Part shown: one piece after another, positions 5,871-19,157 of the stretch
How the letters are laid out: each line of letters opens with the position of its first letter
Numbering within the stretch: position 1 is the first letter of the stretch
Virus record (IMG/VR): IMGVR_UViG_3300030118_004366
Coordinates: 1-62,813 of that record
DNA length: 62,813 nt
Source: a virus
Reading direction: 5' to 3' (one strand)
Made by a program: the position numbers and the translations under genes
Notes under the pieces: generated by a model
Databases searched by the model: none
The model's input: the letters and a program-made list of their open reading frames with translations, nothing else
Told to the model about the DNA's origin: nothing

Positions 5871-6038
5871 TACATTTTGTTTTAATTTTGCAAACAAACT
5901 GACAAATTTATAGACCTCATGTTTAAACAGATACTTGCCAGAAGCTGGACAATAATAGCTGTACACTTTGTCTTGAACCTTCACAACTTTTTGACCAGAA
6001 GCCTTGCTTCTCATTTCAAATGGTAACATATCCTCCAT
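5868..6038 (-). CDS. Hypothetical 56-aa protein (not in ORF track)
   Basis: Hand translation: MEDMLPFEMRSKASGQKVVKVQDKVYSYYCPASGKYLFKHEVYKFVSLFAKLKQNV. It has a TAATG overlap with the upstream gene and contains GTTTAAAC. Confidence 0.4.
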   Translation of the reverse strand: MEDMLPFEMRSKASGQKVVKVQDKVYSYYCPASGKYLFKHEVYKFVSLFAKLKQNV

Positions 6039-6271
6039 TAGTAATAAGGTTTATTTTCTATTGCATAATCCCTAACGTCTTCTTCTAAATCATCTTTAAC
6101 ATAATCCCAGAAAAAATCTGTTATCTCAAAGCCGTCGACTAATACTCTTAATATTGTCAGCTCATCTTCTGGAGGTTGTTCCCAAGTTCCATTGTCCCAA
6201 TAATATTCATAATCAACTGCTACATAATAGCTGTCGTATTCTTTGCAATATGTTCCGCTATACTTACTCAT
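6038..6271 (-). CDS. Hypothetical very acidic, aromatic-rich small protein
   Basis: 77-aa ORF rich in D/E/Y/W, with overlapping stop and start codons with its neighbours. Confidence 0.6.
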   Translation of the reverse strand: MSKYSGTYCKEYDSYYVAVDYEYYWDNGTWEQPPEDELTILRVLVDGFEITDFFWDYVKDDLEEDVRDYAIENKPYY

Positions 6272-14526: not shown

Positions 14527-14767
14527 GTATATAGTTATAAAAAAAATAAACGAAGAGTACAAAACAAAATCTGGACTCTTATTGTCTAATGAAGATATGT
14601 CTTCACTTAGATATCACAAAGCATTAGTTGTAAATCCTGGAACCAATGTTGAAACAGTTAAGAAGAATGATGTAATATTATTTGATAAAGCTGCAGGACA
14701 CTCTATGGTTATTGATGACAACACATATACAGTGATTGAAGAAAGAGATGTGGTAGTAGTACTATAA
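14510..14767 (+). CDS. groES: Co-chaperonin GroES (Cpn10)-like
   Basis: 85 aa. ..YIVIKK....KTKSGLLL......ALVVNPG....VKKNDVILFDK..G......Y.VIEERDVVVVL follows the Cpn10 pattern. Confidence 0.8.
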   Translation: MQAVNKYIVIKKINEEYKTKSGLLLSNEDMSSLRYHKALVVNPGTNVETVKKNDVILFDKAAGHSMVIDDNTYTVIEERDVVVVL

Positions 14768-15211
14768 TCTATTTTCTTGGTTTATTTTTTTCATGTAATT
14801 TCTGTACACCTTATCTCTATACTTAACATCATGTTTAAACACTGGGTTGTTTACTGAGTTCTCGGGAATATCTTCACCATTTAACTTAGCATAAACATTA
14901 CTTATCATTCTTTTGGCCTGAAACGTAAGTTCATACAATGCAGCTTCATTTCCTTTTTTAGGTCTCCACTTATGTATCCAACCTTTTTTAATTAAATCAT
15001 AAAATCTATTTGTATTCCAAGACATCAACTCATTGTATTCTTCAAACTTAGTTTTGGTAAATAGATGTTCGCTGTATAAAAATAACATCAGTTCTAAATC
15101 ACCCGTTGTTATATTATATTTGCGTTTTGCCCAATACTTAATTACTTTCCAATATTTTAAATAATCATGTTCAGGCTGCTTACGTGTAGTGTTTCGTATG
15201 ATGATAGGCAT
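14762..15211 (-). CDS. Hypothetical basic protein, possibly a winged-helix DNA binder; lone leftward gene inside the rightward arm
   Basis: 149-aa ORF with its own -7 box at 15246..15253. Its stop abuts the groES stop. It contains a GTTTAAAC copy at 14833. Confidence 0.6.
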   Translation of the reverse strand: MPIIIRNTTRKQPEHDYLKYWKVIKYWAKRKYNITTGDLELMLFLYSEHLFTKTKFEEYNELMSWNTNRFYDLIKKGWIHKWRPKKGNEAALYELTFQAKRMISNVYAKLNGEDIPENSVNNPVFKHDVKYRDKVYRNYMKKINQENRL

Positions 15212-15234: not shown

Positions 15235-15253
15235 TATCTTTGTTACAAAGATA
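15235..15253. promoter_or_regulatory. 19-bp palindrome TATCTTTGTTACAAAGATA holding two back-to-back divergent -7 boxes
   Basis: TATCTTTG lies on the plus strand (15235..15242) facing 15266, and TATCTTTG on the minus strand (15246..15253) facing 15211. Confidence 0.55.
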
Positions 15254-15265
15254 TAATAAAATCAA

Positions 15266-15403
15266 ATGGCTCGTAAAAATGTAAGTACGTATGTATTTCG
15301 TTCTCGAAAAAAAAGACCTGGGGTACATTCAAAAAACAGACATACGAACCAAAAGAGCGGAAAGTATTATACAGGAACTAAATATAAAGGCCAAGGAAGA
15401 TGA
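15266..15403 (+). CDS. 45-aa highly basic peptide (not in ORF track)
   Basis: Hand translation: MARKNVSTYVFRSRKKRPGVHSKNRHTNQKSGKYYTGTKYKGQGR. Confidence 0.45.
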   Translation: MARKNVSTYVFRSRKKRPGVHSKNRHTNQKSGKYYTGTKYKGQGR

Positions 15404-15570
15404 GTAAACTATCATTAAGAAAACCAAAGAAGGGAAGTAAAATTTGTCCAGCAGGAATAGCTTGGGCTAAAAGAACTTTTGATACTTATCCAGGAGCTTA
15501 TGCAAATATGGCTGCAAGTAAGTATTGTAAAGACCCAAACTATGCTAAAAAGGCAAAAGGGAAAAAATAA
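15400..15570 (+). CDS. 56-aa basic protein with two-Cys motif (not in ORF track)
   Basis: Hand translation: MSKLSLRKPKKGSKICPAGIAWAKRTFDTYPGAYANMAASKYCKDPNYAKKAKGKK. It has an ATGA overlap with the previous ORF. Confidence 0.5.
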   Translation: MSKLSLRKPKKGSKICPAGIAWAKRTFDTYPGAYANMAASKYCKDPNYAKKAKGKK

Positions 15571-15594
15571 TTGTAAATATTAAAATTAAAAATC

Positions 15595-15888
15595 ATGATG
15601 AAAAAACCTATGCTTAATGCCATACAGAAAGTTAAAATGTCCATGGCAATGAAATCAAAAAATCCCAAGATGAATCCTGGGTTTGACTCTTTACCAAAAG
15701 AAGTTCAAAGTAAAATTATGAAAAAGAAAGCAAAGCTTTCTATGAAAAAGAAACCTAAGATGGCTATGAAAAAGCCAAAGGTAGGTATGAAAAAAGTTCC
15801 TAAAGGAGACATGACAATGCCAAAGATGGCTATGAAAAAACCTGCTTTGATGGGAAAGAAACCTAAAATGGCAATGAAAAAGAAATAA
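15595..15888 (+). CDS. Lys/Met-rich repeat protein (PKMAMKK repeats)
   Basis: 97 aa with 32 Lys and 19 Met by my count. The motif (K)PKMAMKK(K) recurs four times. Confidence 0.6.
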   Translation: MMKKPMLNAIQKVKMSMAMKSKNPKMNPGFDSLPKEVQSKIMKKKAKLSMKKKPKMAMKKPKVGMKKVPKGDMTMPKMAMKKPALMGKKPKMAMKKK

Positions 15889-16232
15889 TGCCTTTTAAAT
15901 TAAAAACATTAGGACAGGTATTAGATTTTAGTGACAAGTATTCGACAGGCGATTATATCGTAAAAGAAAAGAAACTTGGCAAATACACTTTGGGTGAAAT
16001 AAATCCAAACGGTGTGATTGACATTGAAAAAGATATGTCACCTGCTCTAAAAAGAAAAGCTGTAAAACATGAGGTAGACCATTTGTATCAAATGAAAAGA
16101 GGAGAGATGAGGTTTGACCATAATAATTATTATTATAAACCCACACCATATTCACCAATACAAGTTATACCTTCAAGTAAAATAGACCCTCACGATAGAA
16201 GTCTACCGTGGGAACAAGATGCACATAAATAA
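15888..16232 (+). CDS. Hypothetical protein with HExxH motif
   Basis: 114 aa containing ..AVKHEVDHLYQM.. Its start overlaps the previous stop. Confidence 0.55.
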   Translation: MPFKLKTLGQVLDFSDKYSTGDYIVKEKKLGKYTLGEINPNGVIDIEKDMSPALKRKAVKHEVDHLYQMKRGEMRFDHNNYYYKPTPYSPIQVIPSSKIDPHDRSLPWEQDAHK

Positions 16233-16474
16233 TGGGTGAATTAAAAAAATGGAGAGAGCAAAACTGGGTACGCATAGGTCGTGATGGAAAAATCAAAGGA
16301 CCCTGTGGAACTTCCAAGAATAAAAAAAATCCAGATAGATGTTTGCCGATGTCTAAAGCAAGGTCTTTATCAAAAAGACAATTAGCTAAAACAGCTCGAA
16401 AGAAAAAAGCTGCTGGTAGAAAAGGAAAACAAGTTGTTCCAAACACCCCAGCTGCAAAAGTAAGAAACTCATAA
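16232..16474 (+). CDS. Small basic protein (..GPCGTSKNKKNPDRCLP.. motif)
   Basis: 80 aa. It resembles small basic proteins I recall from marine phages and giant viruses. That recollection is not verifiable here. Confidence 0.55.
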   Translation: MGELKKWREQNWVRIGRDGKIKGPCGTSKNKKNPDRCLPMSKARSLSKRQLAKTARKKKAAGRKGKQVVPNTPAAKVRNS

Positions 16475-16755
16475 TGGCAAAGAATATAGCAAAAACTACA
16501 GGTAAGGGAGGAAACTTTCGTAAAGCATCAGCTGGTGCGGGCATGACTGAAAAAGGTGTTGCTGCATATCGTAGAGCTAACCCTGGTTCCAAATTAAAAA
16601 CTGCCGTTACAGAAAAAAAGCCCAGTAAGATGAGGGCTAAAAGAAGAAAGTCTTATTGTTCAAGGTCACTTGGTCAAATGAAAATGCACAACATTAATTG
16701 TTCTAAAACTCCAGAAAAGAGAATATGTGCAGCAAGACGTCGCTGGAGATGTTAA
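16474..16755 (+). CDS. Small basic Cys-containing protein
   Basis: 93 aa ending ..KRRKSYCSRSLGQMKMHNINCSKTPEKRICAARRRWRC. Confidence 0.55.
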   Translation: MAKNIAKTTGKGGNFRKASAGAGMTEKGVAAYRRANPGSKLKTAVTEKKPSKMRAKRRKSYCSRSLGQMKMHNINCSKTPEKRICAARRRWRC

Positions 16756-16768
16756 AAAAATATATTAT

Positions 16769-16776
16769 TATATTTG
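16769..16776 (+). promoter_or_regulatory. -7 box TATATTTG
   Basis: The context ttattatatttg lies 29 nt upstream of the ATG at 16805. Confidence 0.5.
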
Positions 16777-16804
16777 TATTTATATTAATTTAAAAAAAAA
16801 AGTT

Positions 16805-17014
16805 ATGGCACAAGGTTATAATGCAAGACTCGATGAGTCGTTAGGTGCAAAGCACGGAAAAAAATCTCAGTCTTTTAAAGACAGAAGAGATGAATCAAAA
16901 GCTATGTCTAAGAAAATGTATGGACATGCTTATGGTGGAGACCATTCTATGAAATATGAGAAACATTATCCTAAAAGTGTAAAAGGACATTTAGGTAAGT
17001 TAATCAGCAAATAG
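16805..17014 (+). CDS. 69-aa basic protein (MAQGYNARLDESLG..)
   Basis: An in-frame ATG downstream of the promoter box. The ORF-track start at 16727 would overlap the previous gene. Confidence 0.55.
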   Translation: MAQGYNARLDESLGAKHGKKSQSFKDRRDESKAMSKKMYGHAYGGDHSMKYEKHYPKSVKGHLGKLISK

Positions 17015-17015
17015 T

Positions 17016-17195
17016 ATGGCTTTTCCACAAATAAAAAAACAAAATCGTGGAAAGTTCACAAAGTGGGCTAAAAGAAACGGTTTCAAAGATGCGTGTAGTG
17101 CAGCATCAGCAGTAATGAAGAGTACAAAAAAATATTCTAAAGAAGTTGTTGAAATGGCTAACTACGCAAATAACTTTGGTTGTAAAAGAAAATAA
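17016..17195 (+). CDS. 59-aa basic protein (not in ORF track)
   Basis: Hand translation: MAFPQIKKQNRGKFTKWAKRNGFKDACSAASAVMKSTKKYSKEVVEMANYANNFGCKRK. Confidence 0.5.
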   Translation: MAFPQIKKQNRGKFTKWAKRNGFKDACSAASAVMKSTKKYSKEVVEMANYANNFGCKRK

Positions 17196-17205
17196 AATTA
17201 AATCT

Positions 17206-17382
17206 ATGGCGAAAGCAAAAAAGAAAGCTGCACCAAAAAAAAGTGTAGCTAAAAAAGAAGTAAAAACTAAAGTAGAAGGTAAACCTGCTGAAGTAAAAGC
17301 TGTAAGCACACATTGCGATGTTCCTTACATACCAAGAAGAATAGATAGGTTACCTCCAGACTTAAATAAATTAAAAAAGTAA
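17206..17382 (+). CDS. 58-aa histone-H1-like Lys/Ala-rich protein
   Basis: MAKAKKKAAPKKSVAKKEVKTKVEGKPAEVK.. This is the internal start of ORF-track entry 17146..17382. Confidence 0.5.
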   Translation: MAKAKKKAAPKKSVAKKEVKTKVEGKPAEVKAVSTHCDVPYIPRRIDRLPPDLNKLKK

Positions 17383-17523
17383 ATGGGAAAATTATTAGTA
17401 AAATTTGGATACTGGATACAGAAAGCTTGGTGCAAATTATTATGTAAGTGGAACTGGCTGGTATCAAAATTAGTAGTAAACGTAAACGACTGCCCAGTGG
17501 CAGAATGTGTTTGTAAAAAATAA
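17383..17523 (+). CDS. 46-aa Trp/Cys-rich hydrophobic peptide (not in ORF track)
   Basis: Hand translation: MGKLLVKFGYWIQKAWCKLLCKWNWLVSKLVVNVNDCPVAECVCKK. Confidence 0.35.
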   Translation: MGKLLVKFGYWIQKAWCKLLCKWNWLVSKLVVNVNDCPVAECVCKK

Positions 17524-17527
17524 AAAA

Positions 17528-17698
17528 ATGAAATTAAATGAAAAATCCCGAGGTTTGGGAGATACTATAGAAAAATTTACCACGGCTACTGGTATTAAAA
17601 ATGTAGTCACTAAGGTCACAAAAGCAGTTGGAGCAGAAGATTGCGGGTGTGGTCAAAGGAGAGACACTTTAAATCGTGTGTTTCCTTACAAAAAGTAA
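17528..17698 (+). CDS. 56-aa protein (..GLGDTIEKFTTATGIK....DCGCGQRRDTLN..)
   Basis: Internal start (MKLNEK) of ORF-track entry 17507..17698. I recall the motif from small proteins of marine phages, from memory only. Confidence 0.5.
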   Translation: MKLNEKSRGLGDTIEKFTTATGIKNVVTKVTKAVGAEDCGCGQRRDTLNRVFPYKK

Positions 17699-17728
17699 AG
17701 AGATTTTTAACCCTCTAAAATAAAAAAA

Positions 17729-18286
17729 ATGGCATATCCTAAAATAACCGTAAACACTGGCTTAGCACTTCAAGTTATAGCCGCAGATTCAATACCAATT
17801 CCATATCCTGGCTGCCCCCAACTAACTGGAAATAATACAGCAAATACTACCGACAAACTTGTCGATGTAGGTGCTGACTTTTCTAACGTTGTTGTTGGTG
17901 ATATTGTATATAATACAGCTACAGGAACTATTGCAACAGTAACTGCGATTGATAGTTCTACTATATTAACTCTAAGTGCTGATATTTTTCAAAACTCTCC
18001 TAACGATACTTATATAGTATTTCAAGGTGGGCCAATATTTGAACAAAGAATAGAATCATCTTCAGGATGCTTACTATACATTGGGTCCACTGCTACCATA
18101 TCTGGAGCTGGAGATGAGTATGTAGATGTGTGTGTAGATACTGTTACTGGTTCAGTACAATCTCCTAACACTGTAATATTCAAAAACTTTAAAGTAGGAA
18201 ACTACCTACCTGTTCAAGTAAAAAAATTACGAGTAGCTGGAAGTAGTGCATCGATTAGAAATCAAGCATGTATAGCTATTTGGTAA
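17729..18286 (+). CDS. Hypothetical (probably structural) protein
   Basis: 185-aa ORF in the late operon. Confidence 0.6.
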   Translation: MAYPKITVNTGLALQVIAADSIPIPYPGCPQLTGNNTANTTDKLVDVGADFSNVVVGDIVYNTATGTIATVTAIDSSTILTLSADIFQNSPNDTYIVFQGGPIFEQRIESSSGCLLYIGSTATISGAGDEYVDVCVDTVTGSVQSPNTVIFKNFKVGNYLPVQVKKLRVAGSSASIRNQACIAIW

Positions 18287-18287
18287 A

Positions 18288-19157
18288 ATGAAAAACAAAT
18301 TAAAAGCAATATCAGCTGAACTAAAAAAAGCATCGAAGACACATGCTGGACAAGCGGCTAAAATTGATAAAATAATAAAACCTAAAATGAGTAAACTACA
18401 TAAAAGCACAAGAAGAAGCATGAGACCAAAGATGTCTATGAAACCAATGCTCTCAATGAAAAAACCTAAAAAAGGTGATGGAAAATTTGGTAAAGTAGCT
18501 GGAAAGGTAGGAGGTGCATTAGGCCTTGTTGGGCAAGCATTAGGAGTGGTAAATCAAATAAAAGAATTAAAAAAGAAGACACCATCAAGTAAAGCTCCAG
18601 ATAAAACTAAAGTTGCTGGTAGAGTTCAAAAACCTTATTTGTCTAAAAAGAAACCTAAAAAATCTGACAAACCTGATATTGATAAAAAATTAATAAAAGA
18701 AGCAGAAAAGAATTTCAAAATAAGAACACCTAAAACTCAAGGTGATAGTATTTATCTTACAAGAACCATGAAAAAAATGGGACAAGTGCCAGGAAGAGAA
18801 TCATCTGCAAAACTGGACTTTTATGAAAAGTATGGTAAAAAAGGTGGCATGAAAAGTAAAGCTGAATTAATAAAAGCCAACAAAGAAAAATTGGCTAAAA
18901 AAAGAGCAGCTACACTTGCTAAAAGAACAAAACCTAAATTATCAAAAAAGAAAAAAGAAATAGCTAAATATAATGTTAGCGGTTTTGTTTCCAAACATAC
19001 AGGATTAAAACCAGGACGTTATGAAAAAGCAGTAATTATGAATGGTGTAAGAAACGCAGCACCATCACGTAGAAAACAAGTTTTAGAAAAATTAAAAACA
19101 AATGCTGGAACAGCAGCCATGTTTAAAAAACCTAAATTATCAAAAAAGAAAAAATAA
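18288..19157 (+). CDS. Large Lys-rich protein sharing KPKMSMK / KPKLSKKKK modules with 15595..15888
   Basis: 289 aa with ..RPKMSMKPMLSMKKPKKGDGKFGK.. and two KPKLSKKKK repeats. Confidence 0.65.
   Translation: MKNKLKAISAELKKASKTHAGQAAKIDKIIKPKMSKLHKSTRRSMRPKMSMKPMLSMKKPKKGDGKFGKVAGKVGGALGLVGQALGVVNQIKELKKKTPSSKAPDKTKVAGRVQKPYLSKKKPKKSDKPDIDKKLIKEAEKNFKIRTPKTQGDSIYLTRTMKKMGQVPGRESSAKLDFYEKYGKKGGMKSKAELIKANKEKLAKKRAATLAKRTKPKLSKKKKEIAKYNVSGFVSKHTGLKPGRYEKAVIMNGVRNAAPSRRKQVLEKLKTNAGTAAMFKKPKLSKKKK

What the first reader, a model, noticed from the sequence alone, without database searches (positions are those of the whole stretch)
15266..19157. Block of about a dozen tiny, extremely basic proteins, including Lys/Met-repeat paralogues
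- The block: between the chaperonin genes and the lysis cassette lie 11 ORFs of 45-114 aa plus a 289-aa one. Several fall below the ORF-track cutoff and were hand-called at 15266, 15400, 17016 and 17383. Nearly all are rich in Lys and Arg.
- Lys/Met repeats: 15595..15888 has 32 Lys and 19 Met in 97 residues (my count), with four (K)PKMAMKK units. 18288..19157 repeats the theme (RPKMSMKPMLSMKKPKK, KPKLSKKKK twice).
- Other members: 17206..17382 is histone-H1-like (AKAKKKAAPKKSVAKK). Others carry paired Cys motifs (..KICPAG....KYCKDP.., ..GPCGTS....DRCLP.., ..YCSRS....INCSK....ICAARRRWRC). 15888..16232 carries HEVDH.
- Recollection: some motifs remind me of small basic proteins scattered in marine phages and giant viruses, but I cannot verify that.
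- Interpretation: as a set they look like nucleic-acid-condensing or nucleic-acid-binding proteins. They might be co-packaged with DNA, act on the host nucleoid, or act on the ribosome.
Basis: partly seen in the sequence, partly recalled or inferred. Interest (0 to 1): 0.6.

Follow-up and report, generated by a model that had tools for sequence, protein, structure and literature searches.

The report
Cassette of small basic phage proteins
A marine phage carries a tight row of real, conserved genes for tiny, strongly positively charged proteins; some are free-standing pieces of a protein found inside ocean cyanophage particles, and a small zinc protease is paired with a lysine/methionine-repeat chain protein, but no function has been tested.

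Summary
15266-19157 carries 13 abutting + strand genes. Twelve are basic (pI 9.0-11.6, against a median of 6.0 elsewhere in the genome) and one, a 185-aa protein, is acidic. All 11 small ORFs are intact in up to 62 of 64 related marine phage loci and are under purifying selection (dN/dS 0.12-0.29; synonymous sites near saturation).

The block has three layers.
1. A module that moves as a unit: 15266, 15400, 16232 and 16474. 16474 is Pfam DUF6321. 15400 is like the N-half of DUF5872.
   - The same parts sit together in the SAR11 podophage HTVC027P and in phage C75C1.
   - In T4-like marine myophages they are fused into one 380-580-aa basic protein next to the terminase gene.
   - That fusion was detected by mass spectrometry in purified S-CREM2 virions and is labelled "virion protein" in S-SCSM1.
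2. An optional pair: a Lys/Met "string-of-modules" protein joined by KPKMAMKK-type linkers, always abutting a 114-aa HExxH zincin (closest solved relative: selecase).
3. A lineage-specific core of five small genes plus the acidic protein.

Best reading (about 45%): these are capsid-internal basic cargo proteins, and the zincin cuts the Lys/Met chains. Nothing is shown biochemically. The scan had noted similar blocks in other genomes.

The parts
15235..15253 (.). Palindrome holding back-to-back TAnnTTTG (-7 box-like) words in the 54-nt gap before the block; likely promoter of the six-gene module
   Evidence: The TA..TTTG scan finds boxes at 15235 (+) and 15253 (-). An earlier scan note gave the lead. 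The promoter role is inferred.
15266..15403 (+). 45-aa protein, pI 11.5; first gene of the mobile six-gene module
   Evidence: Intact in 12 related loci at 41-47 aa, dN/dS 0.18. Weak matches to phrog_17967 (E 0.053) and a 42-aa ORF of HTVC010P (E 0.057).
15400..15570 (+). 56-aa protein with the invariant core ICxAGIAWAKRTFDxYPSAYANMAASKYCKDPNY; resembles the N-half of DUF5872
   Evidence: phrog_27331, E 3e-22. 33 invariant columns in 16 sequences. hhalign to P0206 at 349-368 gives E 1.7e-5; Pfam calls that region DUF5872 positions 1-44. Also present in C75C1 and HTVC027P gp49.
15595..15888 (+). 97-aa Lys/Met-rich chain protein (32 K, 19 M) with KPKMAMKK-type linkers
   Evidence: Relatives are 43-323 aa with shuffled modules. 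Linker copies differ at silent sites. It abuts the zincin gene.
15888..16232 (+). 114-aa HExxH zincin-type metallopeptidase (minigluzincin-like)
   Evidence: H61, E62, H65 and G72 are invariant and LPWE 106-109 nearly invariant in 48 sequences. AF2 pLDDT is 87. Top fold matches are selecase, abylysin, IrrE/PprI, SPRTN and ArdC. The profile hits selecase MJ1213 at E 0.0036.
16232..16474 (+). 80-aa protein, pI 11.6, with the invariant core WVRIGxDGKIKGxCGTSKNKKxPDRCLP
   Evidence: phrog_23735, E 1e-27. More than 2,400 clusters in metagenomes. 36 invariant columns. Module-level similarity to the N-terminus of the T4-like fusion P0217 (BLASTP 4e-4, hhalign 1.5e-3). Fused to the DUF6321 gene in L009.
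16474..16755 (+). 93-aa DUF6321 protein, pI 11.4; four Cys on a helical hairpin
   Evidence: Pfam PF19846, 54.5 bits against a cutoff of 28.5. AF2 pLDDT is 82 with helices at 52-71 and 83-90. C62 and C93 are invariant. 6,699 longer proteins carry this domain.
16769..16776 (+). TAnnTTTG box in the only other gap of more than 40 nt inside the block
   Evidence: Promoter role inferred.
16802..17014 (+). 70-aa basic protein (QGYNARLDESLG... motif); part of the lineage core
   Evidence: Present in 55 of 64 loci, dN/dS 0.19. Weak match to HTVC027P gp47 (HMM E 0.0023).
17016..17195 (+). 59-aa basic protein with 2 Cys
   Evidence: Present in 24 loci, dN/dS 0.18. No family found.
17206..17382 (+). 58-aa Lys/Ala/Pro-rich protein, H1-like in composition only
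   Evidence: Present in 11 loci, dN/dS 0.29. No Pfam or PHROG match.
17383..17523 (+). 46-aa Trp/Cys-rich amphipathic protein
   Evidence: Present in 52 loci, dN/dS 0.19.
17507..17698 (+). 56-63-aa basic protein (RGLGDTIEKFT...DCGCGQRR...FPY); the ATG at 17528 is the more likely start
   Evidence: Present in 62 of 64 loci, dN/dS 0.14. phrog_32048, E 1.6e-6. Homologues in the freshwater phage MW202828 and in Microcystis phage Mel-JY01.
17729..18286 (+). 185-aa acidic protein (pI 4.4), conserved in every related locus; function unknown
   Evidence: The anchor used to fetch 64 loci. No PHROG, PDB-sequence or cultured-phage match.
18288..19157 (+). 289-aa Lys-rich mosaic protein made of an N-terminal "module B", Lys/Met linkers, a Gly-zipper hydrophobic stretch and shuffled C-terminal modules
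   Evidence: 75 K in 289 aa. Module B is a free 38-43-aa ORF in 10 loci and matches HTVC027P gp51. The best 19-aa hydropathy window is 1.47 at residues 70-88. Only 18 partial homologues exist.

Best explanation
The block is a mosaic late-operon cassette of small basic proteins. Most of them are probably carried inside the capsid with the DNA (capsid cargo) and leave with it at infection.

**Layer 1: a widespread viral module (15266, 15400, 16232, 16474, plus "module B", here fused to the start of 18288)**
- In podophages the parts are separate, translationally coupled genes.
- In T4-like marine myophages the same parts are beads of one 380-580-aa basic protein encoded beside the terminase gene.
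- There the last bead (DUF6321) is preceded by a hydrophobic-x-Glu motif of the kind cut by T4-type head proteases.
- DUF6321 is modelled as a helical hairpin, probably stapled by two nested disulfides (C1-C4 and C2-C3). That would fit a particle exposed to oxidising seawater.

**Layer 2: an optional pair (15595 and 15888, plus the second chain protein 18288)**
- The Lys/Met proteins are chains of short cationic modules joined by KPKM(A/S)MKK linkers.
- The abutting 114-aa zincin is proposed to cut at these linkers, with Lys at P1 and Met/Leu at P1'. This would release many small cationic peptides.
- This would be functionally like T4 internal proteins with gp21, or adenovirus pVII/pre-Mu with its protease.

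**Layer 3**
- Five lineage-specific small proteins and one acidic partner of unknown role.

**Shown**
- The genes are real and under selection.
- The module structure, the fusions and the zincin signature.
- Virion detection of the fused homologues.

**Inferred**
- Packaging in this phage, DNA binding, disulfides and cleavage by the zincin.
For: **Real genes**
- Intact ORFs across 10-61 loci with dN/dS 0.12-0.29 and pS 0.53-0.75.

**A module, not a chance row**
- 15400, 16232 and 16474 keep their order but move as a unit to either side of the lysis genes.
- They recur together in C75C1, and in HTVC027P gp49-52 with module B.
- 16232 and 16474 are one 170-aa ORF in L009.
- Pfam DUF5872 spans a 15400-like half, and DUF5872+DUF6321 fusions exist.

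**Virion link**
- The fusion lies among the gp13-gp20 head, neck and packaging genes of T4-like phages.
- S-CREM2 ORF137 (108049-109521) carries DUF6321 at its C-terminus. It is listed among proteins detected by mass spectrometry in CsCl-purified virions (PMC10665884 Table 3).
- S-SCSM1 ORF29 is annotated "virion protein" by authors who used mass spectrometry (PMC9602691).

**Joint and cysteines**
- 94 of 99 long fusions have hydrophobic-x-E-(D/E)-W just before DUF6321.
- The Cys pattern is 113 CCCC against 6 CC, and the CC forms examined (P0162, S-SCSM1 ORF29) keep C1 and C4. C62 and C93 are invariant.

**Zincin pair**
- HExxH...G...LPWE is invariant or nearly so.
- The fold and the sequence profile both point to zincins, with selecase closest.
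- A Lys/Met ORF abuts the zincin gene in 10 of 12 loci. In the other two (L060, L066) the short module B ORF lies between them.
- Co-occurrence among 37 assessable loci is 11 with both, 2 with the zincin only and 24 with neither.
- Linker-bearing extended or fused forms of 15400 and 16232 were seen only in zincin-positive loci.
- The linker is selected as a peptide: 16 KPKMAMKK copies in 13 nucleotide versions.
- Elsewhere the same zincin domain is fused to long basic tails carrying FK(L/M) motifs.
Against: - No direct evidence exists for this phage or for any podophage. The two proteomes are from distant T4-like phages.
- The S-CREM2 signal is small (values 4 and 4.1 in the table). The S-SCSM1 detection rests on the GenBank label only; neither the main text nor the held supplement names ORF29.
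- Homology of 16232 and 15400 to the fused beads is modest: E 1e-3 to 1e-5 on short stretches. A4 against P0122 was not significant.
- The window has no identified head protease or capsid-targeting signal.
- Zincin and Lys/Met co-occurrence involves only 3-5 independent events, too few for a test. Adjacency may simply reflect joint insertion.
- Fold matches for the zincin are weak (Foldseek E >= 0.04, Z <= 5.7).
- The recurring neighbourhood of lysis genes (window, HTVC010P, C75C1) also fits a lysis role.
- Many sister phages lack layer 2 altogether, so it is dispensable.
Confidence: 0.45

Rival explanations
1. The proteins are intracellular nucleic-acid or host-takeover factors that are not packaged. 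Made during infection, the small basic proteins would bind host or phage DNA or RNA (nucleoid compaction, shut-off, help with DNA condensation before packaging, or ribosome binding). The zincin would degrade host DNA-bound proteins, as its Wss1/SPRTN/IrrE-type structural neighbours do.
For: - Extreme positive charge.
- Very strong conservation of the 15400 and 16232 cores across phages of different host phyla, which suggests a universal partner such as DNA or the ribosome.
- The zincin's structural neighbours include DNA-dependent proteases.
- The block lies at the head of the rightward arm, right after the chaperonin genes.
Against: - Fused homologues are in purified virions and are encoded among the head, neck and packaging genes.
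- No ribosomal-protein, histone or HU-type family matched.
- DUF5872 also occurs in a virus of a eukaryotic alga, which argues against a bacteria-specific target.
- Paired cysteines are unusual for proteins that work in the cytoplasm.
Confidence: 0.22
2. The proteins are envelope-acting or lysis accessory proteins. The cationic peptides, above all the Lys/Met chains with their Gly-zipper stretch, would act on membranes or the outer membrane at lysis (as cationic lysis peptides do) or at entry. The zincin would mature them.
For: - The block abuts the lysis cassette, and the mobile module always sits on one side or the other of it.
- DUF6321 lies next to an M15 endolysin in HTVC010P and next to membrane proteins in C75C1.
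- 18288 and its relatives carry Gly-zipper hydrophobic segments.
Against: - Apart from 18288, none of the 12 block proteins has a 19-aa hydropathy window above 1.3. 18288 itself reaches only 1.47, which is borderline.
- No signal peptides are seen.
- In T4-like phages the fused form sits by the terminase gene, not by lysis genes, and is found in virions.
Confidence: 0.1
3. The small ORFs are artefacts of an A-rich strand and are not translated.
For: All three frames of the region are K/R-rich. Several ORFs are under 60 aa.
Against: - ORFs are intact with conserved length in up to 62 of 64 loci.
- Synonymous sites are near saturation while dN/dS is 0.12-0.29.
- There are matches to PHROG and Pfam families and thousands of metagenomic clusters.
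Confidence: 0.02

Closest known systems
DUF6321-bearing basic virion proteins of T4-like cyanophages (S-CREM2 ORF137; S-SCSM1 ORF29, QFG06285.1)
   Same: They share the DUF6321 domain: window 16474 against ORF29 gives E 9e-11, and 73% identity to S-CREM2 over residues 23-93. They also share a 16232-like N-terminal bead, a YPSAYA(N/S) bead, a high pI and a late/structural gene neighbourhood.
   Different: There it is one 490-580-aa protein with extra beads, in myoviruses that have a T4-type head protease. Here the parts are separate 45-93-aa genes in a podophage, and their packaging is untested.
Phage T4 internal proteins IPI-III/Alt with the capsid-targeting sequence and gp21 processing (established knowledge; also the comparison made by earlier scan notes)
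   Same: Small basic proteins that ride in the head with the DNA. They are precursors cut at short motifs. A hydrophobic-x-Glu joint precedes DUF6321 in the fused forms.
   Different: There is no sequence similarity. No targeting sequence or head protease was identified in this window. The proposed protease here is a zincin and the linker is Lys/Met-rich, not L/I-x-E.
Adenovirus core proteins pVII and pre-Mu, processed by the adenoviral protease (established knowledge)
   Same: The working model is the same: polycationic DNA-condensing precursors trimmed by a virus-encoded protease.
   Different: The virus lineage is unrelated, the protease there is a cysteine protease, and this is analogy only.
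Minigluzincins (selecase MJ1213, proabylysin, projannalysin) and the related zincins Wss1/SPRTN and IrrE/PprI
   Same: A soluble HExxH domain of about 110 aa. Selecase is the best Foldseek and PDB-sequence match, and the top rows of the VIA search are almost all zincins.
   Different: The scores are weak (E 0.0036-0.04, Z 3.4-5.7). The family has its own invariant G72 and LPWE motif. It is phage-borne, sometimes on 2-4-kaa proteins. Substrate and zinc ligands are unknown.
Pfam DUF5872 (phages and giant viruses)
   Same: The 15400 core aligns to the stretch of P0206 that Pfam calls DUF5872 positions 1-44. A DUF5872 protein is annotated in the giant virus CpV-BQ1 (PMC12085832).
   Different: Neither 15400 nor 16232 reaches the Pfam model directly at E <= 1. 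The link between 16232 and the C-half is not established.
Bacterial and eukaryotic H1-like Lys/Ala/Pro proteins
   Same: Composition of 17206 and of parts of 18288.
   Different: No family match. The similarity is compositional only.

Membership tests
Pfam DUF6321 (PF19846) | Score above the curated gathering threshold of the family model | tested here: met
   16474..16755 scores 54.5 bits against a cutoff of 28.5, E 1.8e-14, covering model positions 5-72 of 72.
Pfam DUF5872 (PF19197) | Direct match of 15400 or 16232 to the family model | tested here: not met
   No Pfam family at E <= 1 for either protein.
Pfam DUF5872 (PF19197) | Remote homology to regions that the model does match | tested here: inconclusive
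   A3 (the 15400 family) against P0206 349-368: hhalign E 1.7e-5, probability 78%, inside the DUF5872 1-44 match. A4 (the 16232 family) against P0122 is not significant. A4 against P0217 gives E 1.5e-3.
Zincin metallopeptidases / minigluzincins | Invariant HExxH | tested here: met
   H61, E62 and H65 are invariant in 48 sequences. HE..H is present in all 12 locus homologues.
Zincin metallopeptidases / minigluzincins | Zincin fold (mixed sheet plus active-site helix) | tested here: inconclusive
   AF2 pLDDT is 87. Top Foldseek hits are selecase, abylysin and IrrE, but at E 0.04-1. VIA gives Z 5.7-3.4, and its top rows are almost all zincins. The profile against PDB sequences hits selecase at E 0.0036.
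Zincin metallopeptidases / minigluzincins | Third zinc ligand and proteolytic activity | not testable with these tools
   E109 of the nearly invariant LPWE motif is a candidate ligand. No coordinates or assay were available.
Phage capsid-internal (cargo) proteins, T4 IP type | Presence in purified virions | not testable with these tools
   Only fused homologues in S-CREM2 (mass spectrometry) and S-SCSM1 (label). No cultured relative carries the free genes together with a proteome.
Phage capsid-internal (cargo) proteins, T4 IP type | Targeting sequence and cleavage by a head protease | tested here: inconclusive
   Hydrophobic-x-E-(D/E)-W precedes DUF6321 in 94 of 99 long fusions. The window's free genes have no such leader, and no head protease was looked for systematically.
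Ribosomal proteins / histone-like proteins | Match to any such Pfam family | tested here: not met
   No family at E <= 1 for ten block proteins, other than DUF6321.

The most novel reading that the evidence does not exclude
The Lys/Met proteins and the 114-aa zincin form a self-contained polyprotein-processing system of a kind not described in phages. A dedicated minimal metalloprotease would cut KPKM(A/S)MKK-type linkers and release a changeable set of small cationic peptides. Those peptides would be packed with the genome and delivered into the host. The linker would also let phages fuse, split and swap cargo modules freely, including the DUF5872/DUF6321 beads shared with cyanophages, pelagiphages and giant viruses.
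Probability: 0.2. Interest if true: 0.75.

Novelty: new variant of a known kind. Interest (0 to 1): 0.55.

Why it matters
- **Abundance.** These families are among the most common unexplained genes of ocean phages. There are more than 2,400 clusters at 90% identity for the 80-aa protein and 6,699 longer DUF6321 proteins. They occur in phages of SAR11, cyanobacteria and Flavobacteriia, and one of the domains also occurs in giant viruses.
- **A concrete hypothesis.** Showing that the free small genes of podophages and the beads of a virion protein of T4-like phages are the same parts gives a testable idea (capsid cargo) for a large slice of viral dark matter.
- **A new processing route.** The zincin plus Lys/Met-linker pair would be a new way for phages to make and reshuffle such cargo.
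- **Practical points.** Trypsin-based virion proteomics will largely miss these proteins, and gene callers often miss them too.

Tried and rejected
**Tool unavailable**
Contexts came from the search for related loci instead.

**Searches that gave no function**
- Pfam and PHROGs give no function for any member.
- The ESM Atlas returns only viral hypothetical clusters for 17507 and 16802.
- The DUF6321 model has no informative fold match in the PDB: Foldseek E > 4, and VIA Z <= 4.6 on generic helical hairpins. The A2 profile finds no PDB sequence.
- 17729 has no match among cultured phages or PDB sequences. 16802 has none in cultured phages.

**Weak or negative homology tests**
- Narrow family HMMs of the other block members find nothing significant in T4-like loci or pelagiphage blocks beyond decoy level. 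The exceptions are 15400 and 16232 in C75C1 and HTVC027P, and a weak 16802 match to gp47.
- hhalign of the 16232 family against the DUF5872 C-half of P0122 is not significant.

**Hypotheses rejected or weakened**
- That the KPKMAMKK unit is a DNA-level recombination linker: 16 copies come in 13 nucleotide versions with free silent-site variation.
- That the same unit is a reiterated start site: weakened by the same result, although some relatives do start exactly at its Met.

**Limits of what was checked**
- The S-SCSM1 paper's text and held supplement do not name ORF29.
- The tree-based co-occurrence test has too few independent pairs to be significant.

Full report
**What the window is**

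The window is a complete 62,813-bp phage genome with direct terminal repeats. Its large terminase, portal and main structural proteins place it with podophages of Flavobacteriia: the Flavobacterium elemo phages, Cellulophaga phages and Maribacter phage Panino. Its closest deposited relative is an uncultured freshwater phage, MW202828. That phage has the same layout: groEL, groES, an antisense gene, small ORFs, then lysis genes.

**Observation**

The block 15266-19157 holds 13 + strand genes. They are separated by -17 to +46 nt, and most starts overlap or abut the preceding stop.

Twelve genes are basic (pI 9.0-11.6). Median pI is 10.2 in the block against 6.0 elsewhere.

Every frame of this A-rich stretch is K/R-rich, so charge alone is weak evidence. 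I therefore fetched 64 related viral loci through the acidic gene and asked whether the ORFs persist.
- Each small ORF is intact, with similar length and pI, in 10 to 61 loci.
- Synonymous differences are near saturation (pS 0.53-0.75) while dN/dS is 0.12-0.29.

**Three layers**

The presence/position matrix shows three layers.

- *Layer 3, the lineage core.* 16802, 17383, 17507 and 17729 form a fixed core present in 52-64 loci, and also in part in the freshwater relative.
- *Layer 1, the mobile module.* 15400, 16232 and 16474 keep their order but sit either upstream of the core or about 3-5 kb downstream, beyond the lysis genes. They behave as a mobile unit. Both gaps of more than 40 nt in and just before the block carry a TAnnTTTG box, so the unit may have its own promoter.
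- *Layer 2, the optional pair.* The Lys/Met gene and the HExxH gene are present in only 13 loci and always lie inside the mobile unit.

**Layer 1: what the mobile module is**

- 16474 is Pfam DUF6321.
- 16232 has more than 2,400 metagenomic clusters, most about 80% identical.
- The cores of 15400 and 16232 are invariant across phages whose acidic protein is only 33-60% identical.
- The same genes lie side by side in podophage C75C1 and in the SAR11 phage HTVC027P as gp49, gp50 and gp52. There gp51 matches "module B", the N-terminus of 18288, and gp47 weakly matches 16802.
- A search for longer proteins found 6,699 with DUF6321, usually at the C-terminus. Some carry Pfam DUF5872. That model covers a YPSAYAN half like 15400 and a second half.
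- hhalign ties the 15400 family to that first half (E 1.7e-5).
- The 16232 family aligns over 56 columns, both cysteines included, to the N-terminus of the fusion P0217 (E 1.5e-3; BLASTP 4e-4). It does not align to the Cys-less DUF5872 C-half.
- Inside this phage family itself, L009 has 16232 and 16474 as one 170-aa ORF.
- DUF5872 is also annotated in a giant algal virus (PMC12085832).

**Where the fused forms live**

Loci fetched with P0217 are T4-like marine myophages. The 412-578-aa fusion (pI 9.4-9.8) is the only basic protein in a run of acidic neck, terminase, sheath, tube and portal genes, and it sits just upstream of the large terminase. 409 cultured phage records carry a relative, mostly cyanomyophages.

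Two virion proteomes bear on it.
- S-SCSM1 ORF29 is labelled "virion protein" in a record whose authors marked mass-spectrometry-detected proteins that way. It matches 16474 at E 9e-11.
- S-CREM2 ORF137 (108049-109521) has DUF6321 at its C-terminus. It is listed in Table 3 of PMC10665884 among proteins detected in CsCl-purified virions.

Low peptide counts are expected for such Lys/Arg-rich proteins after trypsin digestion.

In 94 of 99 long fusions the DUF6321 bead is preceded by hydrophobic-x-E-(D/E)-W. This has the form of the T4 head-protease site (L/I-x-E, established knowledge). Earlier scan notes on other genomes proposed such protease-jointed head-cargo polyproteins. I used that as a lead and tested only this one joint.

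**DUF6321 structure**

- The AF2 model (pLDDT 82) has a small hairpin of helices at 52-71 and 83-90.
- It has no informative match in the PDB. In the viral structure library it matches only other DUF6321 proteins, including the S-SCSM1 virion protein.
- 113 of 120 sequences have four cysteines and six have two; the two-Cys forms examined (P0162, S-SCSM1 ORF29) keep the outer pair. C62 and C93 are invariant.
- That pattern fits two nested disulfides better than a four-Cys zinc site. This is an inference, because no coordinates were available.

**Layer 2: the Lys/Met chains and the zincin**

*The Lys/Met proteins.* Relatives of 15595 and 18288 range from 38 to 407 aa and are built from a small set of modules in different orders. 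The modules seen are:
- a conserved N-terminal module;
- module B, which is free-standing in ten loci;
- a Gly-zipper hydrophobic stretch;
- several C-terminal modules.

The modules are joined by KPKM(A/S)MKK-type units. Some relatives begin exactly at the Met of such a unit. Only 18 partial homologues of the C-terminal half of 18288 exist in the large protein set. The 16 exact KPKMAMKK copies come in 13 nucleotide versions, so the peptide is what is selected, not the DNA.

*The zincin.* 15888 has invariant H61, E62, H65 and G72 and a nearly invariant LPWE motif.
- Its AF2 model has pLDDT 87.
- The best Foldseek hits are the minigluzincins selecase, abylysin and jannalysin, and IrrE/PprI.
- A Foldseek-independent search returns almost only zincins among its top matches, at Z 3.4-5.7.
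- Its profile finds selecase at E 0.0036.
- The domain also occurs at the N-terminus of 250-650-aa basic proteins and at the C-terminus of 1.9-4-kaa proteins.

*The link between them.*
- In 10 of the 12 loci with an intact homologue the zincin gene is immediately preceded by a Lys/Met ORF; in L060 and L066 the short module B ORF lies between the two.
- Among 37 assessable loci, 11 have both, 2 have the zincin only (a 43-aa mini form and a contig end) and 24 have neither.
- On the tree of the acidic protein this needs 3-5 changes. The Lys/Met trait follows in every informative pair, but there are too few pairs for a test.
- N-extended 15400 proteins and the 16232-16474 fusion, all carrying Lys/Met-type joints, occur only in zincin-positive loci.

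I therefore propose that the zincin cuts these linkers. This is inferred, not shown.

**Rival readings**

- *Intracellular DNA, RNA or host-takeover role.* This remains possible. It is favoured by the extreme conservation of the 15400 and 16232 cores and by the zincin's DNA-dependent structural neighbours.
- *Lysis or envelope role.* This is suggested by the recurring lysis-gene neighbourhood and by the Gly-zipper stretch. However, only 18288 has even a borderline hydrophobic window, 1.47.
- *Artefact.* Excluded.

**Novelty**

- The families are known only as DUFs or unnamed PHROGs. No paper in the library discusses DUF6321, and DUF5872 appears only in a gene table.
- The kind of thing, capsid-internal basic proteins cut from precursors, is known from T4 and adenovirus.
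- The variant here appears undescribed: free-standing beads in podophages, and a dedicated minimal zincin with a Lys/Met linker.
- The scan has flagged similar rows of tiny basic genes in several other genomes, so this is a recurrent feature of marine phages.

Noticed in passing
window 17729-18286: An acidic 185-aa protein (pI 4.4) sits in the middle of the basic block. It is conserved in all 64 related loci and in a freshwater relative. It has no PHROG match and no PDB-sequence or cultured-phage match. It could be a partner or chaperone of the basic proteins, or a structural protein.
   Followed up: partly
L005-L067 relative to window 15400-16755: The module 15400/16232/16474 keeps its internal order but lies either upstream of the core or downstream of the lysis genes in different relatives. 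It behaves as a relocatable cassette inside one operon.
   Followed up: partly
L065:3437-4036: In this relative the Lys/Met ORF and the zincin ORF are in the same frame, separated by a single stop codon (...KKKKK*MSFKLKN...). This could be chance (one in three) or a read-through arrangement.
   Followed up: no
P0255, P0283, P0306, P0314, P0317, P0318, P0325, P0328: The same roughly 100-aa zincin domain ends giant proteins of 1,900-4,000 aa that match no Pfam family. The stretch just before the domain is Lys-rich. These look like giant phage proteins with a terminal protease.
   Followed up: partly
P0254, P0261, P0276, P0311: Proteins with the zincin at the N-terminus have long basic tails with recurring short motifs: FKLxG right after the domain, then (S/A)(P/A)FKM(K/G) and PMKATPITKKS. 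The zincins themselves start M(A/S)FKLK. These may be self-processing sites.
   Followed up: no
window 14762-15211 (- strand) and L071:15230-15706: The lone antisense 149-aa gene before the block has a 44%-identical homologue at the same place in the freshwater relative, annotated "repressor protein". It is conserved in 48 of the 64 loci.
   Followed up: no
L071:14083-14220 (MW202828): The freshwater relative lacks the marine Lys/Met proteins. At the equivalent place it has a 45-aa Lys/Met/Gly-rich ORF (pI 10.5), so the composition recurs without detectable homology.
   Followed up: no
L070:3772-5227 (HTVC027P gp47-gp52): A SAR11 podophage has a parallel row: a 16802-like motif in gp47, then relatives of 15400, 16232, module B and DUF6321, just upstream of its groES. 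The link between a small-basic-gene row and a phage chaperonin recurs across host phyla.
   Followed up: partly
L001:5977-6165 (C75C1): The deposited CDS at this place (62 aa) is in a different frame from the conserved 15400 homologue (5988-6119). The deposited annotation is probably mis-framed.
   Followed up: no
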